Source: Candidatus Norongarragalinales archaeon | GTDB lineage: Archaea > Micrarchaeota > Micrarchaeia > Norongarragalinales > DASYRB01 | Assembly: GCA_036004805.1 (NCBI GenBank) | Contig: DASYRB010000014.1 | Location: 21,330-85,329 of the forward strand | Direction: 5' to 3' | Length of the DNA: 64,000 nt | Shown: one piece after another, positions 42,590-64,000 of the stretch | Position numbering within the stretch: position 1 is the stretch's first letter | Layout: each line of letters starts with the position of its first letter | Made by a program: the position numbers and the translations under genes | Notes under the pieces: generated by a model | Seen by the model: only the letters and a program-made list of their open reading frames with translations | Databases searched by the model: none | What the model was told of the DNA's origin: nothing

Positions 42590-43540
42590 ATGAAGGGAAT
42601 CTATCCCATAGCCAAGCCGCGGCAGCAAGGATTCTTCAACGTCACCGACGGATACAAGCTGCACTACTGGCTCATTGGAAACCCGAAAGGCATCCCCGTA
42701 GTTTTTCTCCACGGCGGTCCCGGCGCCGGTTTCGATAAGGAACACACGCGTTTCTTCGACCCGAAAAAGTTCAACGTGCTGCTCTTTGACCAAAGAGGCG
42801 CGGGCAAAAGCACTCCCTTCGCGAGCACCGAGAACAATAACACTCCCAAACTTGTTCAAGACATTCGCGTGCTTGCGCGCCATTTTTTTGGAAACCGCAA
42901 GTTCGCGATTTTCGGAGGCAGTTGGGGCTCGACGCTCGCTCTCGCCTACGCGCTCGCTTATCCGGAAACGGTTTCGGGAATGGTGCTGCGCGGAATCTAT
43001 CTGTGCGGCGAGGATGAGAGTCAAGAGTTTTTTGTTACTGATTCGAAAAAGAACTATCCAGATGCTTACGAACGCTTCATCAAACCCGTCCCGCAGAAAT
43101 TGAGGAACAATTGGCGCTCGATTGTTAGGTTTTACCAGAAAAAGTTTACATCTAAGGAACGTGACCACTTCACGAAAGAATGGGCGCGCTTCGAAGTTTC
43201 AATGTTGAGTCTTGATTTCAGCGAGAAATACATCAACGAAAGTTTGAGAGGCGATTCTTACAAGTCGCTTTCTCCACTGGAAGCGCATTTTTACATCAAT
43301 TCTTGCTTCATGCCCCGTGATTATCTCATTAAGAACGCGCACAAGTTGTCAGGCATTCCTACGCGCATCGTTCACGGCAGGTTCGACCATGTCTGCAGAC
43401 CTATCGACGCATGGAACTTGCACAAAGAGATCAAAGGATCGAAACTGTTTTTTGTTACTGCGGCGCACAGCGCTTCAGAACCAGCCATGCAGGAAAAACT
43501 GCGTGAACAAATGGACGAGATCGGCAGGATTATTTCTTGA
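42590..43540 (+). CDS. pip: Proline iminopeptidase (alpha/beta hydrolase, S33)
   Basis: It has the HGGPG oxyanion motif and the GGSWGSTLA nucleophile elbow, with length and order typical of Pip. ATG 42590 is preferred over TTG 42587. Confidence 0.85.
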   Translation: MKGIYPIAKPRQQGFFNVTDGYKLHYWLIGNPKGIPVVFLHGGPGAGFDKEHTRFFDPKKFNVLLFDQRGAGKSTPFASTENNNTPKLVQDIRVLARHFFGNRKFAIFGGSWGSTLALAYALAYPETVSGMVLRGIYLCGEDESQEFFVTDSKKNYPDAYERFIKPVPQKLRNNWRSIVRFYQKKFTSKERDHFTKEWARFEVSMLSLDFSEKYINESLRGDSYKSLSPLEAHFYINSCFMPRDYLIKNAHKLSGIPTRIVHGRFDHVCRPIDAWNLHKEIKGSKLFFVTAAHSASEPAMQEKLREQMDEIGRIIS

Positions 43541-46410: not shown

Positions 46411-46869
46411 TTATTTCTTTTTCTTCTTGGCCTTATCGTCGTGGCCTTCTGCGATTTTTTCGACTTTTTTCTCTATTTTTTCCAGTGCCTTGACGACGTC
46501 TTTCGTGGTTTTTTCTCCCTTCTTTGGCGCTTCAGGCGGGTTGAGGAACTCGGTCTTTTCTCTTTTACGGTGCTTCTTGAGCGCTTCCTGGTATTCTTCG
46601 CTCGAAGTGAACCAGTCGGTCGCCACGGTACCCATGAGTCCTGAAATTATCGCCCAACCGGGATTCGCGGGCGGCATTGGCGGCGGACCTTGAGGCTGTG
46701 CGGCCGCTGCGGTTTTTTCTTGCTTTGCGGGCGCGGTTTTGGGAGAGGCGACGTCCGCGATCGCGAAAATGAATGCTAGAAGAATGAAGGCGAATGCGAG
46801 CCAGCCCACGCCGATGAAGAGAGAAATCGCCGCTAGGACGAAGAGTGAAGCATAGGTCGCGAGGCTCAA
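46411..46869 (-). CDS. Small membrane protein (2 N-terminal TM, Pro-rich linker, Lys/Glu-rich tail)
   Basis: 152 aa. The features are LFVLAAISLFIGVGWLAFAFILLAFIFAI, then QPQGPPPMPPANPG, then a charged helical tail. It starts 7 nt after the upstream ORF. Confidence 0.6.
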   Translation of the reverse strand: MSLATYASLFVLAAISLFIGVGWLAFAFILLAFIFAIADVASPKTAPAKQEKTAAAAQPQGPPPMPPANPGWAIISGLMGTVATDWFTSSEEYQEALKKHRKREKTEFLNPPEAPKKGEKTTKDVVKALEKIEKKVEKIAEGHDDKAKKKKK

Positions 46870-46876: not shown

Positions 46877-47212
46877 TCAGTCCTCTTTCTTCTTATCCGC
46901 GCCGCGAGTGATTCCCCAAGCGAGCTTCACGAACGCGTTGAGAATGCCGCCAATGTTCTTCGCAAAAGCTACAGGGCCCGGGTCGCCGCCTCCGAAGTCA
47001 GGCTTGAACTTGATCTCGGTCGGATAGGGCGGATAAGGAGGATATGCGTACTGCGGACCGCCACCGCCAGACTTCGCGGGCGCGCTCTGGCTCTCAACAA
47101 GCAGCCACAATATCGCCGCAACTACTGCGAGGCTGCCGAGGAAAACGGCGCCGCTGTTGTAGAGAAAATAGCCCGCGACGACGAGCACTAAAATTGCCAA
47201 ATAATTGACCAT
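46877..47212 (-). CDS. Small membrane protein (2 TM plus a Gly/Pro/Tyr-rich segment)
   Basis: 111 aa. Two hydrophobic helices are followed by GGGGPQYAYPPYPPYP. It starts 10 nt after the upstream ORF. Confidence 0.6.
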   Translation of the reverse strand: MVNYLAILVLVVAGYFLYNSGAVFLGSLAVVAAILWLLVESQSAPAKSGGGGPQYAYPPYPPYPTEIKFKPDFGGGDPGPVAFAKNIGGILNAFVKLAWGITRGADKKKED

Positions 47213-47222: not shown

Positions 47223-47513
47223 TCAGTATTGTCCAGGCATGTAGCCTTGAGGAGTCATTCCGCCGTCTCCCGAATCCATCTTGGTCGCGACGGCTAAAAT
47301 AATGAACAGTCCCACCAGCACGAACCACGTCGGCACCTCGCCTCCGAAGAAAACGAGTGAAGCGATCGCGATGCCGAGCAGCGTGGCGCCCGTGAGTATC
47401 TTGTTTTTCGAAATGAACAAAAGCAAAATGATGAGTCCGGCAGCGACGGCGTAAATCTTGGTTTGGAGTGCGAGGAGCACGAGGACGGCGAGGAACAGGA
47501 ACGTGAAGTCCAT
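47223..47513 (-). CDS. Small polytopic membrane protein
   Basis: 96 aa with three hydrophobic helices and a GDGGMTPQGYMPGQY tail. The gap to the upstream ORF is 7 nt. Confidence 0.6.
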   Translation of the reverse strand: MDFTFLFLAVLVLLALQTKIYAVAAGLIILLLFISKNKILTGATLLGIAIASLVFFGGEVPTWFVLVGLFIILAVATKMDSGDGGMTPQGYMPGQY

Positions 47514-47520: not shown

Positions 47521-47763
47521 TTAGTCCTTTGGTCCTTTCCAGAACTGTTCTGGTTTTGCTTCCGACAACGCAGGCGTCATGAAGATGATGATGAAAAGCA
47601 GGTACTTGAACCAGTCATAAGGCACGACCAGAATCAGCGTAATGAGTATCGTGATGACGAACGCAACCGAGGGCGTGAGCCAGTCTCCCTTCGTGAACGT
47701 CTTGTAAAGACCAATGAATACCAGTATGAGAACGACGAGTCCTAGGTCTTCCGCGAAAGCCAT
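47521..47763 (-). CDS. Small polytopic membrane protein
   Basis: 80 aa with three hydrophobic segments, co-directional in a tight array. Confidence 0.55.
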   Translation of the reverse strand: MAFAEDLGLVVLILVFIGLYKTFTKGDWLTPSVAFVITILITLILVVPYDWFKYLLFIIIFMTPALSEAKPEQFWKGPKD

Positions 47764-47818
47764 TGCACTAGTATTTTGGCTTTCGGGCTTTAAAAAACGC
47801 TGAAAAAAGTCGTTGCAA

Positions 47819-48214
47819 CTAGTGCTTTCGGGCTTTCCCGTGTGGCGGTCTCGTGGGTGGTCCCAGTTGTTCTGTGGTGCCTTTTTCGAGGTGTTTCAAC
47901 GTCTTCCAGATGCCGAGAATGAATTCTCCCTCGAACAACAAGCCGGCGGCGAGGATTCCGAAGAACATTCCCGCAATGAACCAGTTGAACAGCTTCTCAT
48001 AGAGCAGATAGGCGTTTTGTCCGATGAGTATCTGGATGGGTGTGCCGTCGTGGCTGTAAGCACTTTGCAAGTGGTAATACACAAGGAGTATTCCTGTCGC
48101 GACGACTGCCGAGACGAAGAGGCGGAACTTGCCACTGAACCACGCCTGTCTTTGTCTGTTGGCGACGTAGTAGTATTCGGCGAGTTTTCTTATTTTGGAA
48201 ACCATTTTTTTCAA
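47819..48214 (-). CDS. Small membrane protein (2 TM)
   Basis: 131 aa with a basic N-terminus, the TM helices FRLFVSAVVATGILLVYY and FIAGMFFGILAAGLLF, and a basic tail. Confidence 0.6.
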   Translation of the reverse strand: MKKMVSKIRKLAEYYYVANRQRQAWFSGKFRLFVSAVVATGILLVYYHLQSAYSHDGTPIQILIGQNAYLLYEKLFNWFIAGMFFGILAAGLLFEGEFILGIWKTLKHLEKGTTEQLGPPTRPPHGKARKH

Positions 48215-48226: not shown

Positions 48227-48526
48227 TTACTGCGGCTTTTTGGGTGTTAGTAATCGGAAGAATGGGAACGTCAATGGTATTACGTAGATCAGGCTCGTGG
48301 AAATAATAATCCAACCCAGGATGCCTATCGTCCCGATGATCGGGTGCTCAATCACAAGATAGTAAATCAAAAGGCCGCCGACGATGAGCGCGATGGTCGG
48401 TGAAAAGGGCAGGTGGTCTCTCGCCCAGCGGTAGAGATAGAAGGCAAGAATCGCGAGCCAGACCCACCACGCATACGTGAAAATATTCACTATGTCATCG
48501 ATTATTGAGAACAGCGGAAGAATCAT
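48227..48526 (-). CDS. Small polytopic membrane protein
   Basis: 99 aa, with three to four hydrophobic helices rich in Trp/Tyr/Ile. It has a 4-nt overlap with the upstream ORF. Confidence 0.6.
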   Translation of the reverse strand: MILPLFSIIDDIVNIFTYAWWVWLAILAFYLYRWARDHLPFSPTIALIVGGLLIYYLVIEHPIIGTIGILGWIIISTSLIYVIPLTFPFFRLLTPKKPQ

Positions 48527-49023
48527 TGCGCGCGCCTCTGCAACAGACGGTTTTGTGCTTGTTCGAATTGTTGTTGCTTCTTGTAATGCTGCAATAATAG
48601 GTTCTGGTCGTCGTTCGAGATTTCTTGCCCCTCTTGCATCTTGGTCTCTATTTGTTGAATTTTCGTCATCACTCCGCCCTCCTCACCGCCGCCGCCCCAT
48701 TCTTGAGGCATGTTGAATCCGAGCCCGCGCATTAGCGGCGCGAAGCCGAAGAACACTGTTTGTTGCAGCATGTTTCCGAAGTTCGTGAACATGACGAGGA
48801 AAAGCGTCGCGACGAACGTCATGAGTATCGAGTGGAAGAAGATCAAGTACGCGGCTCCGATCGACACCGCGGCGAAGATGAACGGCTGATCGTTCAGCCA
48901 AACGTAGAGTTGGAAGAGGATGAAAACGAATACGAGTATTTTGAACACGAACGACAAGTCCTGCACGGTGGACAAAATATCGCCCAGTTGCAGCAATGGC
49001 AGGAATGGCAGTAGACTCAGCAT
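48523..49023 (-). CDS. Polytopic membrane protein with a Gln-rich coiled-coil tail
   Basis: The internal start MLSLLPFLPLL at 49023 is chosen because the Arg-rich extension of the track ORF overlaps the upstream gene. It has four hydrophobic helices, then WGGGGEEGG and a Q-rich helix. Confidence 0.6.
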   Translation of the reverse strand: MLSLLPFLPLLQLGDILSTVQDLSFVFKILVFVFILFQLYVWLNDQPFIFAAVSIGAAYLIFFHSILMTFVATLFLVMFTNFGNMLQQTVFFGFAPLMRGLGFNMPQEWGGGGEEGGVMTKIQQIETKMQEGQEISNDDQNLLLQHYKKQQQFEQAQNRLLQRRAQ

Positions 49024-49067
49024 GCGCTTCAGAGAAGCTACCGTCGGGCGGTTTTTAAAACGCGTCT

Positions 49068-49541: not shown

Positions 49542-49569
49542 CAGAAAAACGAAGAAGCGTCGAGTCGCT

Positions 49570-56500: not shown

Positions 56501-57969
56501 TGTTGCGTGCCCGTTTTTTCGTTCGACGTGGCTTGGATGTCGATCGTGTCATTGGCTGGCAGGTCTTGCAAGAACGCGGTGCCGTCGGGTTGCGTGTCTT
56601 GCGGCGTGATTCCTAGAGGGAATCCGTTTCTTTTCGCGGTGATGGTGGCGCCGGCGATCGGTGATCCGTCTTCATCGGTAGCGAGCGCGTTCAGGTTCGC
56701 GGAATTTTCTGCAGTTGCTTTGTGGAGGATGAGCGTGATGGTGCCGGTCGCGTTTGCTTGTCGTGATGGCAGGAATCCTTGTCTGTAAGCGGTCGCGAGC
56801 GCGGCGCTCGTTGTGGATGGATAGTTGAACGCAGCGATGCCGTTGAGTGATTGTTTCGCGTCGATTTCGCGCGATTGCGAATCGAAAATTTTCACTATCG
56901 CGTTGGTGAGTCCGGCGCCGTTCTCGTCGATTACGTTGACGACGAGTCGCGCAGTGTTTTGATCGGTCGCGAGCGCGAGTCGTATCGCGGTCGAGGTGTC
57001 TTCTTCGATCGTGATCGTGTCTGTAGAGCGCGCATGATAGCTCGTGGCGCGAGCAGTGGCCGTGATTTTTGTGCCGAGTGCGATGTCGAGTGGCGCGATG
57101 TTGCCGTCCTTGTCGGTCGCTACTTGGAACAGTGTTTTCGCGCTTGTTGCGTCTTTGATTTCTACTTGCGCGTTAGTAATCGCGTCTCCTTCAATGCCGG
57201 TCGCAGTTCTCACGGAAATTTTGAGTTTTCCGAGTGGCGTTTGTCCTTTCGGGTAGAGGTTGATCGTGACTGGTACTGTGTCTTTGTCTTCGACGTTAAC
57301 GAGTTTTTCGCTCGGCGAATAGCCTTCCGCTGTGGCTTTGACGCGGTATTGCGTGTTGGGGTTGACGTTGAAGGAGACGATGATGTTGCCCGTGGCGTTG
57401 TCGAGCAGCGTGCCGTTCGTCGCGAAGAGGAGGACTTGTGTTTTGGCTGGCCCTTTGAGTTGTAGGTTGAGTTGTACTTTGCTCGTGGTTTTGAGTCGTG
57501 CGGTGAGCGAGAGTGTCGTGATGACTCCTTGTTTGAGTGTTCCTTGTGCGGGCGCGATGTCGAAGTCGTTGAGATAGGCGCGTGCTTCGATTTTTCCTGT
57601 TGGGACGTTTTTGAACGTTGCGTGTCCGGAGTTGTCCGTGACTTGCGTGAGTCGTTCGAACGTTGGTTTCGCTTCTGCGGATACGAGCAGGATGGTTGCG
57701 TTTTGCACGGGTTGTCCGAGGTTCGTGAGCAGCGCGACTTCTGCGCTCGTGGTGGGTAGCGTGGTGAGTGGTAGGTATGCGAAGAAATAGAGGCCTAGGA
57801 TGACGGCGAGCGTGGTTGCGGTGAATGCTGGTAGGCTTGGAATGCCGCGGTCTTCGAGGGAGTCGGCGATGCTGCGCAAGGGTAGTCCTTTGTCTTGTGT
57901 CCAGTCTAGGAACGCGTACCATTTTTCTTGCAGTTGTTCCTGCAGGTCGTCTAGAACCAAGAAATCCAC
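50497..57969 (-). CDS. Giant (2490 aa) type-II-anchored surface protein with N-terminal CarboxypepD_reg-like repeats
   Basis: The 7.5-kb ORF is uninterrupted. It begins with a ~45-aa cytoplasmic helix (MDFLVLDDLQEQLQEKWYAFLDWTQDKGLPL...), then the TM LPAFTATTLAVILGLYFFAYL. Six or more ~80-aa units follow, of the type A.V.......G....T..DG.A.F..VP.G.Y...A...G. A long beta-rich region comes next, then Ala/Gly-rich hydrophobic segments near nt ~51300-51650. Confidence 0.85.
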   Translation of the reverse strand: MDFLVLDDLQEQLQEKWYAFLDWTQDKGLPLRSIADSLEDRGIPSLPAFTATTLAVILGLYFFAYLPLTTLPTTSAEVALLTNLGQPVQNATILLVSAEAKPTFERLTQVTDNSGHATFKNVPTGKIEARAYLNDFDIAPAQGTLKQGVITTLSLTARLKTTSKVQLNLQLKGPAKTQVLLFATNGTLLDNATGNIIVSFNVNPNTQYRVKATAEGYSPSEKLVNVEDKDTVPVTINLYPKGQTPLGKLKISVRTATGIEGDAITNAQVEIKDATSAKTLFQVATDKDGNIAPLDIALGTKITATARATSYHARSTDTITIEEDTSTAIRLALATDQNTARLVVNVIDENGAGLTNAIVKIFDSQSREIDAKQSLNGIAAFNYPSTTSAALATAYRQGFLPSRQANATGTITLILHKATAENSANLNALATDEDGSPIAGATITAKRNGFPLGITPQDTQPDGTAFLQDLPANDTIDIQATSNEKTGTQQVTLATGNNSATIILKKGTGNVEAEVIDHFTQRPISSATVSIAQITCTTSTNGKCTANNVPAGTQTARVNAPGFDDFESAPFNVQPNALTQAQFHMIETSVAQQLRLEFQGFYDSNGRKVENIAPFTRYTAKYLLAAPKTFNFIKATAHVRIGDAQTQLDSEPAEIVGFDSSDANASIVAGENYEQTQPQQNTAPSNETNVTSAQLAATDRGRFKWVEFSFEQFQGTREIAIVIQTKNTTQTMFTLNHRSAFVTDKNEILRSPPDAEAGISKNELLANTQQSAALPVSLEGECQNDYCLSWSFEGRSGKTSAQPFDAAQGEQFAFKITGQNTQPVLLTLSSSAALSINDGATGTTKAQAIDREGKKIFALQFSGGEAAFLINADRVTQSAALTLQASNAQGEKLFEKNFTIRVTGSALGALRVSATPQTLLAGQNNKLSLTIQDSSGRNVENALVTIGTETDAMRATTQLAPQGGGVYSAEVTPANLGTAQYSVQAEGFKQLNGQLQVSAKQLVSIETQPLAFQVNSKEGTQQSFDVENLLDSPVLVHIVILRDSQPSFTTVNTPDASVRLAGKEKKTITVNARISDLVNQYANKQETLQEAFSGRVRIVARAKGIAQEEDVRYAVQSTFSTSALDDAFTISPTTFSLSANPPATPFGQQVVTIKSNALVPLLINTQALAPGLAVTPLSLVVPPQQTATFTVQYAPTAFTTCTFDTESLGSRIDFIASVQGTYARKSLPISITASSSDPCAPLNPVIVTLPFQLTLPAPAGFKTKNNADGSIAVSMYGTRVLLPHEARVANEFITLPRGAQAFFPTDFVQPINFAVAPSSAEYVGLGNAGLPTATLRFSLPSAATLALAAGFQISHPAQNTIITLSSGEVLSYPVLIDPTQQQGGIAALTIPAGVPFTIEPSRDAAAAAKITKIPLSYEKDATITLPAGTVVQRTTDGKTKAILPTCQRLRVTANDGTDAQELPSAKAITFSQTSLQTGAIAASPLDANIPARAQITVEACGELSDSSLLLTFAFPGGASVTLPQGTILDGNIAELPACQKVFVATTFLTELPSAQRVYFPQGSTANGLEVRVPSDAPLSILPCNPLETRSLLSASEGDLFNIDPSKLDFSISDDHKTDTKTVCIYNNATRSLKITPGPVDAALFDALPVGKMRFLKETYATFEIAARPEKPCYEFQIEAQLPASSKDAFGCVARDEDLNGQAFIKASDGRTTRAKSINATVHIKKNDAACPWKQQSTAGASLNDFSINYANDKTSERTGKAMQLSFKDAGHSRPIALINNRPENVKLQITHNTQLASCDIPETLQSGEARIVKCTSSSSTGGSSSDTLEITATGARTNENVKQIIAVTVFAPSQQAKALYTASPWGDTATLVTYGNASIPQDAFVRCEKHYCNYEQVTEAYTSFLQGLRTIVNNAATSYPSSINALCDATASGPVRKAIIIQKVASKQTAEFLASKAQQTLSSSGINAHVTGSEALMSRAGIYTITAQLNLLCGRQPATAEEWKRQASIEIEVSQLPDAQAVPENIANAALLTQEAVEGLTGNQLASFASDFKDIVTRKRAITDGVHIGNYAPQRSKLDESNAIALSRALYGTAPSADEFQESTYYSDAGFCALNGKAVLGTAASVLAGDVALLFSGVGTVQAASAFVQSVTACAAITSVKAVTGTTDTCEIMCDCALQAIAAQSSLLFPGASFGTRAGAVAAITESQRLAFKPTMSALGASFASRQTAMEFIFGAGASGYQAFKGEEPTTVGTQIGTIVPQSARLLFGPRTRAINQLVGSGLSLTTAERAADGIIDAVRNNQPVDNALLERAGVPNAQLAKTKTAASAVEKQLKDSRTFKRTKLLTPSLSGNFLRASGVAASLAAIALTTCNLKPVQTNLQATTQNHLVTFTPSSDLPSTQQICIGNDCTSAKDLCPQDSACIALQRTSQDPQGYLLIATSSDKIKDPIVLYSSVFQPDAPPVTINAQTASAAPAVDAARPIQKIVIKP

Positions 57970-58011
57970 CTGTTACGGATTAGAGCGCCAGTGGTTTAAA
58001 ACGAGGTTTTT

Positions 58012-61000
58012 TCAGCTTGCGCGGTCCGCGATGCACGTGCCGCCGGACGGGCACGCGTTGCTGGTCTTGTCGCATAGGCGGAAGGTGACGATGTCGCCGC
58101 TAGTGAACGAGGCGGGGAACGCGTTGGTCGGTCCTACTGTTGAGATGTACGGGTTTTGTCCGTTGAACACCGTGTCCGCGTTGAGTACTGTTGATTTGTA
58201 AATGATGCCGAAATAGAAGCTCGACAGCGGCTTGCCTGCGATGTTGTCTTGCGAAAAGTCCACTCTTATTGACGGGCTCGATCCTGAGAGGTCGACCTTG
58301 CAGCTGCTGTAGGGCTGCGTCGTAGAGCTGGATTGTAGCGTGTGGTATTGCACGGTGGCGGGTACTGTGTATTGGCAGGACGTTTCCGGGCCCGAGGTCG
58401 GAGCGATGGTGAAAGCGTAAGTGTTTCCTGGAACGTAAGTCGCTTCGAAGTGTCCCGTGAGCCTGTTTCCTGAAGGGATGATGGTTGCTGGCGGTGTTAG
58501 CGCGGTGACGTCTCGCTCGCCGCTAGGCTTGAACGTGCTTAGCCTGATCTGGTTTCTGGTGACGGCGCTGGGGTCTCTGTTGAACGTGAGAGTAAAGTCG
58601 ATCATGTTTCCAGTCGAGGCTCGCACGGAAGCACTCGTGCACGATAGCGCGCTGGTTGGCGTTGTTGTCGCGCCCGTACTTGGTGTTGTCGTGGTTGTTG
58701 GAGCGCTTGAGTAGCCGGCGCTTTCTTCCAGCGTGAGTGGCTGGTCGCTTGCTGGCGCGGTGCTTCCTGGAATGTTGAGTAGTGTGGTTCTTTCGCGGTC
58801 GTCTTGCGGCGGGCAGAGTAGCGAGAGCGTGTGTGCTTTGTCGTCGTATGCTCTGTAGCAGCTGCTGATCCTGGTTTCGTTGAGTGATGTTTGCGCGTCG
58901 TTCGCTAGGTAAGAGACGATTTTTCGCGTGATGAAGTTCGACCAGCTCGGCTCTTCTACGCCCGTGATCGTGATGGGCGTGCTTCCGAGCGCGATGGTTA
59001 TTGGCGGCCTGCTGGCAGCGATGAGCGCGTTTCCTGAAGCGTAAACCACTATTTGTCCTGGAATGATTTTTCCTGCGTCGCCTCCGAACTTTGTTCCCCA
59101 GAGCACTGTCTTTTCGAGAGGCTGCATCGTGTTGCTGGGCTTGTTCAGCAGGAACGAGGAGGACGTCATGACTGGGCAAATGCTCGGGTCGTTCACGGGC
59201 ACCGCGTTGCAGACCCATTGTCCAGACGCGCTGGAGTCGGTGACGAGGTTCTTGAGCGTTCTCGTCGTGGCGCGCGTTGCTGTGAAGTAGTCCTTGAGTT
59301 CTTGGAACACTTTCACGACGCCATCGATCGATATTCGAGTGGCTCCGGTCTTGTTTTCGGTGGTCGTTGGGTGAATGATGCTCGTTCCGATCGCGTCAGC
59401 CTTTGCGGTGGTGCATTGCCACTCGTAGTAACATGATCGCACTTCGATGGATGGTTGCGCGTCTTGGAATCGCGGGTTTCCTTGCGCGTCGGCGAGCGGT
59501 TGGTAGATGCCCATCACGTCGAGCGAAGGATCGGGCTGGTTGAACTTGTACTTGTTCAACGTCGCCAGATTGATTCCTGGATTCGAGTCGGTGACTTTCG
59601 CGCTTTGTACGGTGTAAGTGTCTTTTTCGAGTTTGACGTATTGGTATTTCTGGTCGTTCGTCTTCTTGCACGAAATGTCAGGCGCGGTGTTTCCGGTTTG
59701 CAGAGTCGCGTCGCAAGTGAACAACTGCGTTCCAGCATCCGCGCCAGCTTTGCGTTCCGGCACGTTCACCGTGATCTTGTTCGTGAGGAGCGGCACGGCT
59801 TCGCTGACTTTCTGGTACTTGCTTTCCGTTTGCTGTCCTGTAGGGTCTGGTCCGAATGGAGTGCCGAACAATCCCGCGACTGCCGGGCTTGTCGGCGGTT
59901 GGAACTGGTTGTAGTAATTGTATTGGTATGGCGAGAATCCTTGCATTCCTGGCGTTTGGTATTGTACGAATCCTGGATAGTTTTGTCCGAGACGCATCGC
60001 GCCCGCGAGGCTCGAGGCTTTAGCGATTCCGCCGATTAGCGCGACGTTGCACGCGGCTTGTATTCCGCTGATTCCGAGCTGAGTGGCTACTTGTCCTTTG
60101 CGTTTCGCGACGAACCAAGCCTTGTCGCCGATCGTTCCCTGGCAAATCGCTTGCACTTGCACGGTCGGGTCGCAGACCAAGTTTTGCGCGCTCGCGCCTT
60201 GCGCAATGGTGCATGCTTGGTAGTCGGGGTCGCGGCACATTTCTCCCGCGACAGTATAGAGCGCGTAAACTCCTGCGTCGCTGAATCTCGCGAGCCAGTT
60301 TCCGAGCTTGTCTTCGGTGGTGAATGTTCCTGGGACGTATTCTTTGAGTTCCTCGTTAACGAGCGCTTTCACGGTGTCTTGGGTGATCGCGCGCGTGCAG
60401 TAACCATCGCGGCATCTCTCGAGCGTGGGCGCGTCCGTGTACAAGGAACCGACGCTGTCGAATTGTGCGAATCCTTGGTCGTTCGCCGACGTCCTTCCGA
60501 GGTCGGGCGCGATGTTGATGAGTTTGGCGTAGTCGTATTTCACGTCCGTTGGTGAACCACCGGCGCTCGCGACCGCTTTCGCGCCGCTCGTCGTGATGAC
60601 TAGTTTTTGTTCGCTCGGGAGTTCTCCAGGCTTGACGTTTACGGTTTCGGTTTGCGCGATGGAGATTTCAGTGTTCGGAATGTCGCTGATGGGTGCGAGC
60701 GCAATGTTGTTCACCAATAGTAGCGGCTCGATGCTTTCTTTGAGCTTGGGTTCTGCGCGCGCGGTGATGTTCGCGGTCGGTCCGGGCGTCAATATGAGTG
60801 CGAGCTTGCTTGGGTTGTTTCCTACGATGTTTACCGCTACGGAGTATGACTTTTTGCCGAGTCCGCCGATCGAGAACGCGCCGATGTCGAATGTTTTCGA
60901 GCGCTGGTCTTCAGCTCCGGAGAAGCCGATCTTGAATTTTCCGTCGCTCGTGATGCTCTTCGTTAGGCATTTTTGTCCGCTGAACACTGCCGCGATGGTT

Positions 61001-64000
61001 TTCTTGCCGTTGGCCGGAACGATGAGTCTTGCTGAGAGCGATTTCTCGATGCCGGAGTTGCTGACGTCGCGCAGTTGGAAGCAACCGCTGCTGCTGGGCT
61101 GTGACAGTATTTCTTGCTGCGTGCTGAACGAGTTGTCGAAAGTTATCGCGAGCGCGTTGTACGGAATGAGTGGCGTGATCGTGAGTTGTTGCGGCGTGCC
61201 TTGCGTCTCAAGACCGGCGCTCGTGAGCTTGATCGTGATTCCCGTAGAGTCGGCTGCTGGTTGTGGTCCTTTCTGGAATCCGAGTCCTTGTGACAGCGCG
61301 CTGCCGAGGAAGTATTGGAAGAACGAGTCCTCGAAGCGTTTTTGGTACTTGTTCGCGATGCGTTGCTTGCAGCTGCAAACTCCCGCGTACAAGCACTTGC
61401 TTTGCGGCGTTCCTGTCTTTCCTGTAAACACGCCGCTGCCGGTTGTTTGCGCGGCGGGCCTGTCGAGGCAGTCGCAGTCTTCCTGTGTTGGGCAGTCTTC
61501 GTAACTCATGCAAGCGATCGCGTTCGGTGGCAGCTTTGGTTGGCAAGCGTTGCTCGCTGGAACGTCTTGCGAAGCGAACGTCGTTCCGTAGCCGTTCGCG
61601 GTGGCTTCGAAGTGGATGTTGCAAGCGTTGCTTGGAATGTACGGCTCTACTTGGATGGTTTTTGCTTTGCGTGGCGCGAGCGCGAATGAGATCGAGTTCG
61701 CTCTGAGGTTGGTTGTGGCTTGTGCGCTGCGCAGCGTGACGCATGGCTCGTAGGTGGCGCGCACGGTGACGCGCGTGTCGAGCGTGTTGACGACCTTGAG
61801 GCCTTGTACTTTGCAGTCTTCCTCTATGCCGACTTCTTCCGGTTCGAACAATAGGAAGTCGGTCGCGCGCACTTGAATAGGCACGGGAGCGAATGCGTCG
61901 GCGAATCCTTCGCGCTTCGCCATCACGTCGATGAAACCGATCGTTGTTGCTTTGACGCGTCGGAATCTGTACACGCCGTTTTGTCCGTTGTCTTTCGTGT
62001 TGTCACCTTGGATCTCAAGCTCGTGGCCGTCGAGTGGTTGCGTGTCTTGCGCGTCCTTGAGGAAAACGCTCGCGTCGGTGATGGGTTGTCCGATGTCGTT
62101 CTGGAGCGTGACGTAAACATCGATGCGTTGGTTCGCAGCGATGCCTGGCGGTATTGCTGAAACGACCATTCTTCCCGGTCCCGTGACGCTAACGAAGCTG
62201 TCTTCGCTGAGTATCGCGCCACGCGAATCGCCGAATTCTATTCGCACTCGCGAGTTCGGGTTGACGAGTTGTGCGGTGGTGTCGGTGGTGATGAAGAACT
62301 CGTTCGGTAGTGAAGAGCCGCCTATCTTGACTTGGAAGTCGTGGTTGCCGTTCGCGTTTCCGCTCGGTATTGTTGCTGGAGTGCCTTGGTAGTTGCCGAA
62401 CGATAGCGCGTTGTCGGGGCTCGAAACTTTCAGGTAGGCGGTTGGTAGTTCGACGCTGCTTGGGGCTACGAGTCGCACTTCGGCGCGAGTCACGAACTGC
62501 GTTCCATACGGCACGTTGAAGCCGCGTCCGCCGCTGGATTGCGCGTTGCTGTATGAAACGGAAATGCATCCGTCGTTCGTGCAGCTCGTCGTGCCTGTTT
62601 GTATTGGGATGCTCTTGAGGCTTGTTTGCGCGTAGCACTCGTCCTTGAGCGCGGTGCGTTGCGAAATGCCGAGTTCCGAGTCTTCGGGCGTTCGCACGTA
62701 GACGTCGTTCTTGCGCGCGTACGCACGGTAGTAAAGATTGAGCTTGTCGCCTTGCTGCGCAGTGGGTTTGATGAGGACTTGCGCATCGACGCAGTAGACG
62801 CCTGCGGGTTGTTGGTATACGGCGGTGAACCATTTCGCGTTGCCGCTCGCTTGTTGGTTCAAGTAATCGTTGCTGCAGCTTCCGCCCGGCGTGTTGGTTG
62901 ACGCGCTGTAGATCGATGAAGAACCGGGCGCTGCGTTCGACGGGTTGAGAATAGTTACGAAGTCTTCTTGTTCGCTTTGTTTGTCACTGGCGCGCACGTA
63001 GATTCCTGCTTCCTGCGCGTCTCCCGGAAGATTGGCGCAAATTATTGCGTCATAAGTGGCGCCGCGGTCTGCTGCTTGTGCGGAGCGTCCGTTGCGTTGT
63101 ATGTCGACGCTTACTATCGAGAGGTTGTTGCGCAGTGATGCTGGCACGAGTGGTAGTGATTTTTGTATGGTTTGTTTGGGTCCGACGTTGAGTTGTTCGC
63201 TCGTTGTAGAAACGTAGCTCGCGGCGTCTGCGCGGATAGTGATTTGCGCGTTGGCGCGGACTTTTACGTTGCAGCTGCCGCCGGTCGTGGTGCATTGCGC
63301 GACGGGCAGGTTGCCTTCGAACGCGTTCACCGTTCCATCAATCACGCTCTTCGTCGTGGCATCTTTGAGTGTGACGCTGATGGTGCCTTGCGCGGGTCCG
63401 AGCTTGATTTGTGCTTGCGCGGGTTCGCCGAGGTCGATGTTGAAAACGTCGCTTTCAGCGTCGCGCGCGTCGATCGCGGCTCGCGCTTTGATGTTTGTTG
63501 TTAGTGGCAGTTGTTCGAAAGTCGCGATGCCGTTGCCGTCAGTGATTTCGCGTGGCGCGCCGAGGTAGAAACCGTCGTTGTTGAACAGGTCGACGTCAGC
63601 TCCTGATACGGGCACGCCGTCTTCATCGACGACGCTCACTTCTGCACTGCCGTAGTTTCCGATCACGGCGCGCGGTAGCGTGATGGTGCTGGAATCGCCT
63701 GCTTGCAGTGGCGCGGCGCAGCCGGCGCATGCTGGTAGGTAGTCTTCGTGTGAAGCGGTGATGTATGCGTTGACGCCTTTCGCGAGCACGAACGATGCTT
63801 GTCCGTTAGTGTTCGTCGTGCTGCGCAGTCGCGCTTTGTCGGGCGTGTTGGTGAAGAACATCGTGAGCAACGCGTCTTGAATCGCTGCGCCGCTCTCGTC
63901 AATGATTTTTACAGTGATTGTAGAGTGTGTGGAGCCGAACGCTGCGTCTTTTCTCTGCATCGTTACGCGGAACTCGGTGTCGCGCGTGCTGCTCGCGATC
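58012..64000 (-). CDS. Giant (more than 1995 aa) surface protein, 5'-truncated by the window edge; architectural paralogue of the 2490-aa protein
   Basis: The frame stays open from 63960 to the window end (..IASSTRDTEFRVT before the first Met), so the gene starts outside the window. It has CarboxypepD_reg-like units (ITVKIIDESGAAIQDA...TNTNGQASF; AEVSVVDEDGVPVSGADVDLF...TDGNGIATF). Cys-rich and beta-rich regions follow, with an Ala/Gly-rich hydrophobic segment near nt ~60000-60090. Confidence 0.85.
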   Translation of the reverse strand, partial: IASSTRDTEFRVTMQRKDAAFGSTHSTITVKIIDESGAAIQDALLTMFFTNTPDKARLRSTTNTNGQASFVLAKGVNAYITASHEDYLPACAGCAAPLQAGDSSTITLPRAVIGNYGSAEVSVVDEDGVPVSGADVDLFNNDGFYLGAPREITDGNGIATFEQLPLTTNIKARAAIDARDAESDVFNIDLGEPAQAQIKLGPAQGTISVTLKDATTKSVIDGTVNAFEGNLPVAQCTTTGGSCNVKVRANAQITIRADAASYVSTTSEQLNVGPKQTIQKSLPLVPASLRNNLSIVSVDIQRNGRSAQAADRGATYDAIICANLPGDAQEAGIYVRASDKQSEQEDFVTILNPSNAAPGSSSIYSASTNTPGGSCSNDYLNQQASGNAKWFTAVYQQPAGVYCVDAQVLIKPTAQQGDKLNLYYRAYARKNDVYVRTPEDSELGISQRTALKDECYAQTSLKSIPIQTGTTSCTNDGCISVSYSNAQSSGGRGFNVPYGTQFVTRAEVRLVAPSSVELPTAYLKVSSPDNALSFGNYQGTPATIPSGNANGNHDFQVKIGGSSLPNEFFITTDTTAQLVNPNSRVRIEFGDSRGAILSEDSFVSVTGPGRMVVSAIPPGIAANQRIDVYVTLQNDIGQPITDASVFLKDAQDTQPLDGHELEIQGDNTKDNGQNGVYRFRRVKATTIGFIDVMAKREGFADAFAPVPIQVRATDFLLFEPEEVGIEEDCKVQGLKVVNTLDTRVTVRATYEPCVTLRSAQATTNLRANSISFALAPRKAKTIQVEPYIPSNACNIHFEATANGYGTTFASQDVPASNACQPKLPPNAIACMSYEDCPTQEDCDCLDRPAAQTTGSGVFTGKTGTPQSKCLYAGVCSCKQRIANKYQKRFEDSFFQYFLGSALSQGLGFQKGPQPAADSTGITIKLTSAGLETQGTPQQLTITPLIPYNALAITFDNSFSTQQEILSQPSSSGCFQLRDVSNSGIEKSLSARLIVPANGKKTIAAVFSGQKCLTKSITSDGKFKIGFSGAEDQRSKTFDIGAFSIGGLGKKSYSVAVNIVGNNPSKLALILTPGPTANITARAEPKLKESIEPLLLVNNIALAPISDIPNTEISIAQTETVNVKPGELPSEQKLVITTSGAKAVASAGGSPTDVKYDYAKLINIAPDLGRTSANDQGFAQFDSVGSLYTDAPTLERCRDGYCTRAITQDTVKALVNEELKEYVPGTFTTEDKLGNWLARFSDAGVYALYTVAGEMCRDPDYQACTIAQGASAQNLVCDPTVQVQAICQGTIGDKAWFVAKRKGQVATQLGISGIQAACNVALIGGIAKASSLAGAMRLGQNYPGFVQYQTPGMQGFSPYQYNYYNQFQPPTSPAVAGLFGTPFGPDPTGQQTESKYQKVSEAVPLLTNKITVNVPERKAGADAGTQLFTCDATLQTGNTAPDISCKKTNDQKYQYVKLEKDTYTVQSAKVTDSNPGINLATLNKYKFNQPDPSLDVMGIYQPLADAQGNPRFQDAQPSIEVRSCYYEWQCTTAKADAIGTSIIHPTTTENKTGATRISIDGVVKVFQELKDYFTATRATTRTLKNLVTDSSASGQWVCNAVPVNDPSICPVMTSSSFLLNKPSNTMQPLEKTVLWGTKFGGDAGKIIPGQIVVYASGNALIAASRPPITIALGSTPITITGVEEPSWSNFITRKIVSYLANDAQTSLNETRISSCYRAYDDKAHTLSLLCPPQDDRERTTLLNIPGSTAPASDQPLTLEESAGYSSAPTTTTTPSTGATTTPTSALSCTSASVRASTGNMIDFTLTFNRDPSAVTRNQIRLSTFKPSGERDVTALTPPATIIPSGNRLTGHFEATYVPGNTYAFTIAPTSGPETSCQYTVPATVQYHTLQSSSTTQPYSSCKVDLSGSSPSIRVDFSQDNIAGKPLSSFYFGIIYKSTVLNADTVFNGQNPYISTVGPTNAFPASFTSGDIVTFRLCDKTSNACPSGGTCIADRAS

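What the first reader, a model, noticed from the sequence alone, without database searches (positions are those of the whole stretch)
43530..64000. A co-directional array of more than 20 kb: two tandem giant surface proteins, an anchored small protein, DUF424, eight tiny polytopic membrane proteins, then ppsA and a ParB-like gene
All 14 ORFs from the right window edge down to 43530 are on the minus strand. The junctions, from my coordinates, are 42, -4, 7, 28, 44, -4, 12, 55, 7, 10, 7, 35 and -4 nt, which is operon-like packing with three ATGA-type overlaps. The two giants (more than 1995 and 2490 aa) share an architecture, and the gene array continues beyond the window. Nothing in the array resembles components of surface machines I know: there is no ATPase, no class-III (pilin/archaellin) signal peptide, no secretin, no VirB4/CedB-like gene and no glycosyltransferase. 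Giant extracellular proteins combined with a dedicated set of small integral membrane proteins suggests an uncharacterised envelope, attachment or host-interaction apparatus of a DPANN-like archaeon.
Basis: partly seen in the sequence, partly recalled or inferred. Interest (0 to 1): 0.75.

Follow-up and report, generated by a model that had tools for sequence, protein, structure and literature searches.

The report
Giant surface proteins with membrane cassette
A Micrarchaeota (DPANN) archaeon encodes two huge membrane-anchored surface proteins next to a set of small, unclassified membrane proteins, and this pairing recurs in distant relatives, so it may be a new kind of cell-surface or host-contact machinery.

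Summary
Fourteen minus-strand genes run from 43530 to the window edge, with the stated junctions. The organism is a Micrarchaeota archaeon.

The array is not one unit. ppsA and the 136-aa gene are unrelated neighbours, and "ParB-like" is unconfirmed. DUF424 is a pan-archaeal housekeeping family. TATA boxes 30-37 nt upstream of giant 2, TM1, TM2, TM5 and ppsA split the array into at least six transcription units.

The core idea survives. Giant 2 starts with a ~45-aa acidic module plus a TM helix that matches no Pfam family. This module heads at least 170 protein clusters, mostly 1,800-5,100 aa, labelled Micrarchaeota, Diapherotrites or Iainarchaeum.

Five independent loci found through such giants carry colinear homologues of the small membrane genes downstream. 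One locus reproduces the whole order: giant 1, giant 2, 202-aa protein, DUF424, TM1-TM8. Five other relatives lack the cassette within the 3-10 kb visible.

The small proteins match no Pfam, NCBIfam or PHROG family. TM2, TM3 and TM5 are paralogous 3-TM units.

Best reading, at about 0.5: N-anchored fibrous ectoproteins work with a hetero-oligomeric membrane platform in surface or host contact. The function is inferred, not shown.

The parts
58012..64000 (-). Giant 1, C-terminal 1995 aa of a 2320-aa protein whose start lies about 974 nt beyond the window. It has CarboxypepD_reg/Ig-like repeats, 44 Cys and few N-glycosylation sequons.
   Evidence: ORF and frame. Full length from the JGI gene call. 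Pfam. Orthologues in L003 (27 % over 776 aa) and L022 (27.8 % over 867 aa, E 1e-68). Composition.
57995..58001 (-). TATA-like box TTTTAAA, 31-32 nt upstream of the giant 2 start codon. Predicted own promoter of giant 2.
   Evidence: The same spacing occurs at other genes in the window and before giants in L019, L017, L022 and L023.
57745..57969 (-). N-terminal module of giant 2: about 44 acidic residues, inferred cytoplasmic (EKW..FLDW..DKGLPLR..D.LE.RGIPSLP), followed by a TM helix (aa 45-72).
   Evidence: TM prediction. Conservation. 170 clusters at E<=1e-3, with the match at the N-terminus of the hit in the listed matches. No Pfam family. Mean net charge -3.6 over the first 50 aa.
50497..57969 (-). 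Giant 2, 2490 aa. Inferred type II (N-in, C-out) membrane-anchored ectoprotein with prealbumin/Ig-like repeats and 30 Cys.
50500..52332 (-). Conserved distal C-terminal region of giant 2 (aa 1880-2490): an alpha/beta domain, hydrophobic helical hairpins and a Cys-rich beta domain.
   Evidence: Conserved in about 25 family members. AlphaFold2 with a 20-sequence alignment gave pLDDT 71 and pTM 0.59. No Foldseek match in PDB or BFVD at E<0.1.
49892..50500 (-). p202: N-terminal TM anchor plus a ~150-aa extracytoplasmic domain (F.[LI][KR]YP.GY motif, invariant Cys pair). It overlaps the giant 2 stop codon by 4 nt. It is the neighbour found with the giants in the most fetched loci.
   Evidence: Homologues next to or near giants in L003, L004, L005, L008, L013, L019, L022 and L025. 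Only sub-threshold DcrB/PsbP signals.
49570..49884 (-). DUF424 (arCOG04051/COG2412). Soluble, 7 nt after p202. Probably co-transcribed, but a pan-archaeal family.
   Evidence: Pfam 1.8e-18. PDB 2QYA, E 0.002. PMC9425974. In the same position in L003, L019, L022 and L025.
49569..49574 (-). TATA-like box TTTAAA, 33 nt upstream of TM1. It overlaps the DUF424 stop codon.
   Evidence: Equivalent box at -29 before TM1 in L022.
49068..49541 (-). TM1, 157 aa, 4 predicted TM helices.
   Evidence: Orthologue in L022 (38 %, E 5e-30). Absent in L019 and in sub-lineage B.
49053..49060 (-). TATA-like box TTTTAAAA, 35-37 nt upstream of TM2.
   Evidence: A box stands before the first cassette gene in L019 (-35), L017 (-29) and L023 (-28).
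48523..49023 (-). TM2, 166 aa: a 3-TM unit plus a C-terminal coiled-coil/Gln-rich tail.
   Evidence: Homologues in L019 (33 %, E 4e-16) and L022 (34 %, E 9e-24). Positional counterpart TM2b in L017, L020 and L023.
48227..48526 (-). TM3, 99 aa, 3 TM, with a W-x-R motif after helix 1. The best-conserved cassette protein. Overlaps TM2 by 4 nt.
   Evidence: 58 % identical to L022, 43 % to L019. TM3a-TM3b hhalign E 6e-4. Paralogous to TM2b and TM5.
47819..48205 (-). TM4, 128 aa, 2 TM, basic C-terminal tail. Found only in sub-lineage A.
   Evidence: Homologues in L019 (32 %, E 9e-15) and L022 (38 %, E 5e-19).
47789..47808 (-). TM4/TM5 junction: a T6 run (47803-47808), terminator-like for archaea, followed by TTTTTTAAA (47789-47797), 31-32 nt upstream of TM5.
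   Evidence: A TATA box before TM5 is also present in L022 (-29) and L017 (-32).
47521..47763 (-). TM5, 80 aa, 3 TM, with an invariant Asp at the start of helix 1.
   Evidence: Family present in all six cassette loci (HMM 1e-15 to 4e-26). hhalign a/b E 2e-4. Alignment.
47223..47513 (-). TM6, 96 aa, 3 TM, with an MD.FT N-terminus and a GP..Y.PG..GY C-terminus.
   Evidence: Family present in all six cassette loci. hhalign a/b 95 % probability, E 3e-8. Alignment A6.
46877..47212 (-). TM7, 111 aa: an N-terminal TM hairpin plus a Pro/Gly-rich tail with a YP.E.K motif.
   Evidence: Homologues in L019 (partial) and L022 (HMM 4e-9). TM7b paralogue series in L020 and L023. The single SNP against the JGI contig lies here and is synonymous.
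46411..46869 (-). TM8, 152 aa: a TM hairpin plus a long basic tail. TTG start supported by homology.
   Evidence: L022 homologue (HMM 4e-8). Weak relation to TM7b of L023.
43530..46405 (-). NOT part of the system: ppsA (43937-46375) with its own TATA box (46400-46405, -30), and an overlapping 136-aa ORF (43530-43940). A separate neighbouring unit.
   Evidence: Pfam. TATA. Not conserved after the cassette in L022. 136-aa ORF has no family hit.

Best explanation
The region holds a conserved gene neighbourhood of Micrarchaeota and Diapherotrites/Iainarchaeota archaea. It spans several transcription units and has two parts.

Part 1 is one to three tandem 'giants'. Each giant has a conserved acidic cytoplasmic module of about 45 aa, one TM helix and a Cys-rich ectodomain of 2,000-5,000 aa. 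The ectodomain is built from prealbumin/Ig-like beta-sandwiches and ends in a lineage-variable distal domain.

Part 2 is a colinear cassette of five to eight small integral membrane proteins. Its core is TM2, TM3, TM5, TM6 and TM7. TM2, TM3 and TM5 are paralogous 3-TM units. TM7 and TM8 are hairpins with tails.

In this sub-lineage two further genes sit between the parts and are probably co-transcribed with giant 2. One is a membrane-tethered extracytoplasmic protein (p202, possibly DcrB/PsbP-like). The other is DUF424.

Proposed mechanism:
- The giants are inserted N-in, C-out and project as long tethers through the envelope.
- Their distal domains bind or attack another cell's envelope.
- The cassette proteins assemble into a hetero-oligomeric membrane platform. 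This platform receives, anchors or helps export the giants through their conserved N-module and TM helix.
- p202 acts outside the membrane as an assembly factor or chaperone.

Shown: the gene structure, the promoter-like sites, the N-module family and its size, the colinear conservation of the cassette next to giants in five further loci, and the absence of any known family for the module and the cassette.

Inferred: the topology, complex formation, physical contact between the N-module and the cassette, and the host-contact role.

ppsA and the 136-aa gene are unrelated neighbours.
For: 1. Forward synteny test. Loci were retrieved only through giants. L022 reproduces giant 1 orthologue, giant 2 orthologue, p202, DUF424, TM1-TM8 with HMM E-values of 1e-8 to 1e-34. 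L019 reproduces giant, p202, DUF424, TM2-TM7. L017, L020 and L023 have 2-3 giants followed by TM2b, TM3b, TM5, TM6, TM7b.
2. Among 55 profile-profile comparisons, three of the five scoring above 20 % probability are positional equivalents: TM6 (95 %, E 3e-8), TM5 and TM3. The other two link TM2b to the TM3 families.
3. These loci are deeply diverged. GC ranges from 0.40 to 0.60, the giants are no more than 30 % identical or similar only in the N-module, and the flanking genes differ.
4. Most cassette proteins with a clear L022 match (27-58 % identical) are more conserved than the giants (~27 %) and p202 (26 %). This indicates purifying selection.
5. The N-module heads 170 clusters, mostly 1,800-5,147 aa, and in the listed matches it lies at the N-terminus of the hit. 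It matches no Pfam family.
6. The distal domains vary. P0071 ends in an SLT lytic transglycosylase (2.3e-10), and P0149 has PKD plus a weak CBM_11 hit.
7. The promoter layout is conserved: a TATA box before each giant, before the first cassette gene and before TM5.
8. No cassette member matches Pfam, NCBIfam or PHROGs.
Against: 1. Five relatives (L003, L025, L004, L005, L008) have giants and p202 but no cassette within the 3-10 kb available. Adjacency is therefore not obligatory, and I could not check whether the cassette lies elsewhere in those genomes.
2. The reverse test, finding cassettes first and asking whether giants are adjacent, could not be run.
3. The positive loci may represent only two deep lineages (A: window, L019, L022; B: L017, L020, L023). 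Part of the signal could be inherited gene order.
4. Separate promoters mean co-expression is not guaranteed.
5. There is no experimental, structural or interaction evidence for a complex or for host contact.
6. The p202 fold assignment is below significance.
7. The N-module is acidic, which is unusual for a cytoplasmic flank under the positive-inside rule.
Confidence: 0.5

Rival explanations
1. The small-membrane-protein cassette is an independent membrane complex of its own, for example a transport or membrane-homeostasis function. It sits beside the giants only through inherited gene order and has no functional link to them.
For: The cassette has its own promoters. It is missing next to giants in L003, L025, L004, L005 and L008. 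In L020 it is separated from the giants by 8 kb of unrelated genes without apparent loss. The positive loci may reduce to two lineages.
Against: The intervening and flanking genes differ between lineages A and B and within them, while giants and cassette stay together and co-directional. At 25-40 % protein identity and GC of 0.40-0.60, gene order outside functional units is usually lost; this rests on general knowledge of prokaryotic synteny decay. Chance placement within 10 kb downstream in 5 of 10 genomes of about 1 Mb has a probability of order 1e-9 if the loci are independent (my estimate).
Confidence: 0.25
2. The giants and cassette do work together, but as structural envelope components, such as S-layer-associated or cell-shape and spacing elements of the archaeon itself, rather than for attachment to or attack on another cell.
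For: The beta-sandwich repeat proteins are anchored in the organism's own membrane. Micrarchaeota have an S-layer with a 20-25 nm pseudoperiplasm that needs anchoring (bioRxiv 10.1101/2021.04.28.441871).
Against: The known Micrarchaeota S-layer protein is about 101 kDa and has a PF05123 domain, which the giants lack. The giants evolve fast, vary in copy number (1-3) and carry variable distal domains, including a lytic transglycosylase in one member. That pattern is more typical of interaction proteins. The giants have few glycosylation sequons (0.2-0.6 per 100 aa), whereas another ORF in the window has 5.8 per 100 aa.
Confidence: 0.12
3. The block is a mobile genomic island or integrated element carrying surface genes.
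For: AAA_14/DUF4143 ATPase genes and NTP_transf_2/HEPN toxin-antitoxin pairs occur inside or next to several loci. Giant copy number varies.
Against: There is no integrase, no flanking repeat and no tRNA at the borders in the window. GC in the array (0.555) is close to the rest of the window. There are no hits in IMG/VR, plasmid or phage collections. The block is present in many diverged genomes.
Confidence: 0.05
4. As the reader's title implies, all 14 genes, including ppsA and the 'ParB-like' gene, form one co-transcribed operon of more than 20 kb and a single functional unit.
For: All genes are co-directional, with 13 short junctions and three 4-nt overlaps.
Against: All five TATA-like sites on this strand in 20.5 kb lie 30-37 nt upstream of start codons (giant 2, TM1, TM2, TM5, ppsA). 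That is the spacing used elsewhere in the window. A T6 run follows TM4. ppsA is a housekeeping gluconeogenic enzyme and is not conserved after the cassette in L022. The 136-aa ORF has no ParB signal.
Confidence: 0.03

Closest known systems
Giant 'SPEARE' surface proteins of Nanohaloarchaeota (DPANN)
   Same: Both are very large membrane-anchored ectoproteins of a DPANN archaeon, rich in Ig-like modules and proposed to mediate host contact (PMC10266531, PMC6642349).
   Different: The SPEARE-type proteins carry a VirB4/TraG-like ATPase domain, are followed by a VirB4 ATPase gene and have a Sec signal peptide. The giants here have no ATPase domain, a different conserved N-terminal module and a cassette of small membrane proteins instead.
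TonB-ExbB/ExbD and TolA-TolQ/TolR (N-anchored extended proteins with small polytopic membrane partners)
   Same: The layout is similar: an elongated envelope-spanning protein held by a conserved N-terminal TM anchor, encoded with small 3-TM and 1-2-TM membrane proteins. TM5 and TM6 have an invariant Asp at the start of helix 1. This loosely recalls the essential Asp of ExbD, TolR and MotB, which is my own knowledge.
   Different: There is no sequence relationship. MotA_ExbB and ExbD Pfam families were not hit by any of the 36 cassette proteins at E<=1. The subunit number and sizes differ, and the organism is an archaeon without an outer membrane. This is an analogy only.
Extended signal peptide region (ESPR) of very large autotransporters and TpsA proteins
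   Same: Both are conserved N-terminal extensions preceding the hydrophobic segment, found specifically on very long secreted or surface proteins. What I say about ESPR rests on my own knowledge. Here the module heads proteins mostly 1,800-5,147 aa long.
   Different: The sequence and domain of life differ. There is no evidence that the archaeal module is cleaved or slows export.
Tandem giant extracellular proteins Giant1-5 of Apilactobacillus kunkeei
   Same: Both are consecutive genes for 3,000-8,000-aa surface proteins occupying several per cent of a small symbiont genome (PMC12863079).
   Different: That system is bacterial and unrelated in sequence. I did not check that paper for an associated small-membrane-protein cassette.
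Archaeosortase/exosortase systems and type IV pilus-like loci
   Same: In L003 and L023 a short PF09721 exosortase-family protein sits directly upstream of the first giant (E 4e-9 and 1.4e-6), followed by a protein with a pilin-like N-terminus. I see Cys/Arg/His motifs in the two sequences by eye. L023 also has a T2SSE ATPase and a T2SSF-like gene nearby.
   Different: None of these genes is in the window. The giants have no C-terminal sorting signal (PGF-CTERM-like TM plus basic tail). The window proteins have no class III signal peptide.
DcrB / PsbP (Mog1p/PsbP-like fold) extracytoplasmic proteins
   Same: p202 is a membrane-tethered extracytoplasmic ~150-aa domain of mixed beta/alpha type with an F-x-[LI]-[KR]-Y-P-x-G-Y motif. 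Its only profile and fold signals point to DcrB or PsbP.
   Different: All signals are below significance (Pfam E 0.02-0.2; Foldseek E 0.17 on a model with pLDDT 50). Membership is not established.

Membership tests
DUF424 (PF04242 / arCOG04051 / COG2412) | Significant match to the Pfam profile over its full length | tested here: met
   E 1.8e-18, 67 bits against a cut-off of 25, profile positions 8-91 of 92. PDB 2QYA, E 0.002.
PEP synthase / PPDK family (ppsA) | Three-domain architecture: PPDK_N, PEP-utilizers mobile domain, PEP-utilizers_C | tested here: met
   E-values 2e-108, 2.3e-27 and 4.7e-75.
   No Pfam family at E<=10, no NCBIfam family at E<=0.1 and no PDB sequence at E<=10. Only a DGHRR motif is seen by eye.
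Micrarchaeota/archaeal S-layer protein (SLP_Mh type) | S-layer N-terminal domain PF05123, about 100 kDa, heavily glycosylated | tested here: not met
   No PF05123 hit in either giant. Their size is 2,320-2,490 aa, with only 0.2-0.6 N-X-S/T sequons per 100 aa. Family features taken from bioRxiv 10.1101/2021.04.28.441871.
Type IV pilus / archaellum-like system | T2SSE/FlaI ATPase, T2SSF/FlaJ platform protein and class III signal-peptide pilins in the locus | tested here: not met
   None among the 14 window genes. These genes occur only in relative L023, divergently upstream. The region upstream of giant 1 in this genome lies outside the window.
Type IV secretion-like / SPEARE giant proteins | VirB4/TraG-type ATPase domain in or next to the giant | tested here: not met
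   No ATPase domain in the giants or their neighbours. Feature taken from PMC10266531.
Mrp/Mnh or Mbh-type small membrane subunits | Pfam MNHE, MrpF_PhaF, PhaG_MnhG, MnhB or Oxidored_q2 matches, plus large antiporter subunits in the operon | tested here: not met
   None of these families was hit by the 8 window proteins at E<=10 or by 36 cassette homologues at E<=1. No large subunit is present in any locus.
MotA/ExbB/TolQ-MotB/ExbD/TolR stator family | Match to MotA_ExbB (PF01618) or ExbD (PF02472) profiles | tested here: not met
   These families do not appear among the hits of 36 cassette proteins at E<=1. The resemblance is in layout only.
Archaeosortase/exosortase substrate system | PF09721 transpeptidase in the locus and a C-terminal sorting signal (motif, TM helix, basic tail) on the substrate | tested here: inconclusive
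   PF09721 proteins lie upstream of the giants in L003 and L023. None is in the window, and the relevant region lies outside it. The giants and p202 end without a C-terminal TM helix.
DcrB / PsbP-like fold (p202) | Significant profile or structural match to DcrB, PsbP or PsbP_2 | tested here: inconclusive
   Pfam DcrB E 0.067, PsbP E 0.23, PsbP_2 E 0.023, in single family members only. The model has pLDDT 50. The top Foldseek hit is DcrB 6e8a at E 0.17. A PDB profile search found nothing.
Proposed new family: N-module giants (this work) | A ~45-aa module ([ED]KW/Y..FLDW...KG[LI]P.[RY]...D.[LI]E..GIPS.P) directly followed by a TM helix, at the N-terminus of a protein longer than 1,500 aa made of beta-sandwich repeats | tested here: met
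   Giant 2 meets all features. Giant 1 could not be tested because its N-terminus lies outside the window, but its orthologue in L003 has the module.

The most novel reading that the evidence does not exclude
The cassette is a previously unknown membrane machine that acts on the conserved N-terminal module and TM helix of the giants. It could be a dedicated insertion or export and anchoring device for ectodomains longer than 2,000 aa. More radically, it could be an ion-driven, stator-like complex that transmits energy to the N-anchored giants, as ExbBD does to TonB and TolQR to TolA. Either way, the giants' distal domains (adhesive, or lytic as in the SLT-bearing member) could be deployed against the host envelope. 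That would make it the first described host-contact machine of Micrarchaeota and Iainarchaeota.
Probability: 0.12. Interest if true: 0.9.

Novelty: categorically new. Interest (0 to 1): 0.7.

Why it matters
How DPANN archaea attach to their hosts and exchange material with them is a central open question. For Micrarchaeota and Iainarchaeota no molecular device is known.

This analysis turns a list of hypothetical genes into a defined, searchable module:
- an N-terminal signature that marks at least 170 clusters of giant surface proteins;
- five to eight new small-membrane-protein families with a fixed order;
- a conserved promoter layout;
- recurrent partners (p202; a mini-archaeosortase and a pilin-like protein in relatives).

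This gives concrete targets for co-culture systems, including proteomics, cryo-ET, antibodies and AlphaFold-Multimer. It also gives HMMs for testing phyletic co-occurrence.

If the cassette is a machine that handles or energises N-anchored giants, it would be a new class of envelope apparatus. If it is not, the N-module family is still a new, well-delimited class of archaeal giant surface proteins.

Tried and rejected
1. Recovering the 5' end and upstream region of giant 1. Exact look-ups of giant 2 failed in all four forms: V-start, M-start, the NCBI 2487-aa form and the copy from L001. The metagenome scan did not return the home contig. The upstream region therefore remains unseen, and only the total length of giant 1 (2320 aa) is known.

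2. Word-index homology searches. p202 returned only itself. A concatenation of the eight small proteins returned nothing, not even the self-matches, so that search is uninformative.

3. S-layer protein hypothesis for the giants. Rejected.

4. Known small-subunit membrane complexes (Mrp/Mnh, stator proteins, SMR, Tat, holins, conjugative pilins). Only isolated sub-threshold hits appeared: DUF2976 at 0.024, TrbC at 0.047, a holin PHROG at 0.017. None recurred among the 36 homologues.

5. Virus, plasmid or mobile-element origin. No relatives in IMG/VR, PLSDB or INPHARED.

6. p202 structure. The single-sequence model reached pLDDT 50. Foldseek placed DcrB and PsbP among its top-ranked but non-significant matches.

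7. Distal domain of giant 2. The model was usable (pLDDT 71), but no PDB or BFVD match appeared.

8. Reverse synteny test starting from cassette proteins. The TM6 alignment was too divergent for pattern scanning. The TM5b scan of viral contigs was empty.

9. My interim conclusion after searches was that the small-TM set is not conserved. The loci fetched overturned it.
Full report
**1. The observation**

The window is archaeal. It encodes NucS, RtcB, an eRF1-family protein, TruD, FtsZ and Lhr. Giant 2 is 100 % identical to a protein of a 'Candidatus Norongarragalinales archaeon' MAG, which places the organism in the Micrarchaeota, a DPANN phylum.

From 43530 to the right edge, fourteen genes lie on the minus strand. 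Independent gene calls on a 99.995 %-identical JGI contig agree.

Giant 1 runs off the window. The JGI call gives it 2320 aa, so about 325 aa are missing.

Pfam confirms DUF424 (1.8e-18) and PEP synthase. It finds only CarboxypepD_reg, PEGA, SpaA, bMG3 and invasin-type beta-sandwich signals in the giants.

The 136-aa ORF called 'ParB-like' has no profile or PDB support.

The two giants resemble each other only over roughly their N-terminal 790 aa.

**2. Transcription units**

This genome places TTTAAA-type TATA boxes 26-37 nt upstream of start codons at many genes. On the minus strand of the 20.5-kb region there are exactly five such sites. Every one lies 30-37 nt upstream of a start codon: giant 2, TM1, TM2, TM5 and ppsA. 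A T6 run follows TM4.

The predicted units are therefore:
- giant 1
- giant 2, p202, DUF424
- TM1
- TM2, TM3, TM4
- TM5, TM6, TM7, TM8
- ppsA and the 136-aa ORF

The same junctions carry TATA boxes in related loci: before each giant, before the first cassette gene and before TM5. This is a cluster of several operons, not one operon.

**3. First round of comparisons, and a wrong interim conclusion**

Giant 2 has few close relatives in the word-indexed database.

The best of these is L003. It shows giant A, giant B, a p202 homologue, a 445-aa soluble protein, DUF424 and then unrelated genes, with no small membrane genes.

Scans of GTDB genomes and JGI metagenomes with giant alignments gave 13 Micrarchaeota loci. 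In these, a single giant of about 3,000 aa is accompanied by a p202 homologue. I found no DUF424 and no small-TM homologues. At that point the small-TM set looked lineage-specific.

**4. The N-terminal module**

The first 75 residues of giant 2 are the best-conserved part of the protein. They consist of an acidic stretch of about 44 aa (EKW..FLDW..DKGLPLR..D.LE.RGIPSLP) followed by a TM helix.

A full HMMER scan of 1.84 billion representative proteins with these 75 residues found 170 clusters at E<=1e-3. In the listed matches the hit lies at the N-terminus of the target. Most of the proteins are 1,800-5,147 aa long, and the short ones look like truncated gene calls or small proteins of 130-280 aa.

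Source labels are Micrarchaeota, Diapherotrites and Ca. Iainarchaeum.

No Pfam family covers the module. Its mean net charge over the first 50 aa is -3.6.

**5. Second round: the cassette is conserved next to giants**

I looked up members of this family on their contigs.

- **L022.** Giant 1 orthologue (27.8 % over 867 aa), an inserted AAA_14 gene, giant 2 orthologue, p202, DUF424, one opposite-strand gene, then eight small genes. These match TM1-TM8 in order, with HMM E-values of 1e-8 to 1e-34.
- **L019.** Giant, p202 (34 %), DUF424 (50 %), TM2-TM7, then the contig ends.
- **L017.** Three giants, a 131-aa N-module protein, then proteins of 127, 127, 82, 95 and at least 60 aa.
- **L020** (labelled 'Diapherotrites'). 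Three giants, the 131-aa protein, an 8-kb insertion carrying NTP_transf_2/HEPN pairs, OGG and AAA_14/DUF4143 genes, then the same cassette.
- **L023.** Two giants, then TM2b, TM3b, TM5, TM6 and four TM7b paralogues.

Among 55 profile-profile comparisons, three of the five scoring above 20 % probability pair positional equivalents: TM6 (95 %, E 3e-8), TM5 (E 2e-4) and TM3 (E 6e-4). The other two link TM2b to the TM3 families, and cross-hits show that TM2, TM3 and TM5 are paralogous 3-TM units.

The loci are deeply diverged. GC ranges from 0.40 to 0.60, and the giants are no more than 30 % identical or alike only in the N-module.

Identities between the window and L022 are 38, 34, 58, 38, 38, 27 and 31 % for TM1-TM6 and TM8. 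By comparison they are about 27 % for the giants and 26 % for p202. Most of the small proteins are therefore the better-conserved part, which argues that they are real genes under purifying selection.

After TM8 the window has ppsA, whereas L022 has unrelated genes and PolB. ppsA and the 136-aa gene are therefore neighbours, not members.

**6. Limits of the association**

L003 and its relative L025 have giants, p202, soluble proteins, DUF424 and no cassette within 10 kb. L025 lies on a 1.23-Mb contig with three giants. L004, L005 and L008 also lack the cassette in the flanks available.

So five of ten independent relatives with at least 3 kb of downstream sequence have it.

If placement were random in genomes of about 1 Mb, five of ten within 10 kb downstream would have a probability of order 1e-9. 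This is my estimate and it ignores shared ancestry. Effectively there are two deep lineages, A and B, with different intervening genes.

The reverse test, starting from the cassette, could not be run.

**7. What the parts are**

- **Giants.** They have an N-terminal TM anchor and no C-terminal TM helix or sorting signal. They carry 30-44 Cys and few glycosylation sequons, and they are built from beta-sandwich repeats. The inferred topology is N-in, C-out. The distal 611 aa of giant 2 are conserved in about 25 relatives. This region models at pLDDT 71 as an alpha/beta domain, hydrophobic helical hairpins and a Cys-rich beta domain. It has no match in PDB or BFVD. Other family members end in different domains, for example an SLT lytic transglycosylase in P0071 (2.3e-10) and PKD plus a weak CBM_11 hit in P0149.
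- **p202.** This is the neighbour found with the giants in the most fetched loci. It has an N-terminal anchor, an F.[LI][KR]YP.GY motif and two invariant Cys. DcrB and PsbP signals are only sub-threshold.
- **DUF424.** This is arCOG04051, present in most archaea, low in variability and linked elsewhere to NMD3 or TPR genes (PMC9425974). Its place in this locus is conserved in lineage A only.
- **Cassette proteins.** They match no Pfam, NCBIfam or PHROG family, singly or across 36 homologues. Conserved features include W-x-R after helix 1 in the TM3 family, an invariant Asp at the start of helix 1 in TM5, MD.FT in TM6, and a YP.E.K motif in the tail of TM7.

**8. Extra partners seen only in relatives**

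In L003 and L023 two genes sit directly upstream of the first giant. The first is a short PF09721 exosortase-family protein (E 4e-9 and 1.4e-6; the two are 30 % identical to each other). I see Cys/Arg/His motifs in both sequences by eye. The second is a protein of 427 or 743 aa with a pilin-like N-terminus. L023 also has a divergent T2SSE ATPase, a T2SSF-like 9-TM protein and a 149-aa pilin-like protein.

The corresponding region of this genome lies outside the window.

**9. Interpretation**

The best-supported reading is a conserved module in which N-anchored fibrous giants work with a hetero-oligomeric small-protein membrane platform. In this lineage p202 would serve as an extracytoplasmic helper.

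The cytoplasmic N-module is much more strongly conserved than the ectodomains. That implies a conserved partner on the cytoplasmic or membrane side, and the cassette is the obvious candidate. This step is inference.

A host-contact role is inferred from four things: the DPANN lifestyle, the adhesin-type repeats, the fast-evolving and variable distal domains (including a lytic enzyme), and the analogy with nanohaloarchaeal giants (PMC10266531).

The main rival is that the cassette is an independent complex kept nearby by descent.

The literature I could search describes Micrarchaeota S-layers, pili and large surface proteins. It describes nanohaloarchaeal giants and bacterial tandem giants. I found no description of this module or cassette. 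The library is incomplete, so prior description cannot be excluded.

**10. Verdict**

The array as drawn mixes in unrelated genes and is not one operon. The function is unproven.
- Interest is 0.7.
- None of the specific components (N-module, p202, TM1-TM8) belongs to a described family, so I rate the module as categorically new. The claim that it is one functional system stands at about 0.5-0.6.

Noticed in passing
window 26039-31384 (+): A 1781-aa ORF with an N-terminal hydrophobic segment, no Pfam hit and 103 N-X-S/T sequons (5.8 per 100 aa, about ten times the density in the giants). It is a candidate heavily N-glycosylated envelope protein.
   Followed up: partly
window 37570-42564 (+): A 1664-aa Cys-rich ORF (40 Cys) with no Pfam hit, lying just beyond the end of the minus-strand array on the opposite strand. 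It has no N-module and no similarity to the giants.
   Followed up: partly
window 15138-16967, 24441-25217, 25214-25822 (+): Three proteins whose only Pfam hit is the Lon protease C-terminal proteolytic domain (Lon_C). They are 609, 258 and 202 aa, and two of them overlap in tandem.
   Followed up: no
window 10721-10804 (+): ARAGORN calls tRNA-Leu(CAA) here, but it is not among the Rfam tRNA matches at the gathering threshold (two other tRNAs are). It may be an atypical or intron-containing tRNA.
   Followed up: no
whole window, e.g. upstream of 211, 8320, 17010, 33279(-), 34574, 36133(-), 42587: TTTAAA-type TATA boxes sit 26-37 nt upstream of start codons across the window. This implies mostly leaderless or very short-leader mRNAs. 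The hexamers are rare (25 per strand in 64 kb), so they are good promoter markers here.
   Followed up: yes
L019 2-457(-), L022 8640-9881, L020 26984-28269: AAA_14 (plus DUF4143) ATPase genes recur beside or inside giant loci in three unrelated loci. In L022 one lies between the two giants.
   Followed up: no
L020 21558-29166: An 8-kb insertion lies between the giants and the cassette. It carries an HTH gene, two NTP_transf_2/HEPN toxin-antitoxin-like pairs, OGG, PRiA4_ORF3 and AAA_14/DUF4143. The module tolerates being split.
   Followed up: partly
L003 1122-2998; L023 530-9959: A mini-archaeosortase (PF09721) and a large protein with a pilin-like N-terminus lie directly upstream of the first giant in two distant loci. 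L023 also has a divergent T2SSE ATPase, a T2SSF-like 9-TM protein and a 149-aa protein starting MNRGQ (class III signal-like).
   Followed up: partly
P0071 (MFH1240225.1), residues 2746-2875: This N-module giant, labelled Ca. Diapherotrites, ends in an SLT lytic transglycosylase domain (Pfam 2.3e-10). That domain is a peptidoglycan-cleaving enzyme on an archaeal surface protein.
   Followed up: partly
window 46934 (TM7 gene): The only difference between the window and 20.3 kb of the JGI contig Ga0376049_0000217 is one synonymous G/T change in the TM7 gene. An 8.3-kb Logan contig from another run is 100 % identical.
   Followed up: yes
L004 8998-9831, L005 5421-6056, L006 9255-9869, L015 5076-5738, L016 518-1210; L017 21511-21906, L020 21112-21507: Small proteins of 131-277 aa carry the same N-module, a TM helix and one or two beta-sandwich domains. 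They sit immediately upstream (lineage C) or downstream (lineage B) of the giants, like 'mini-giants'.
   Followed up: partly
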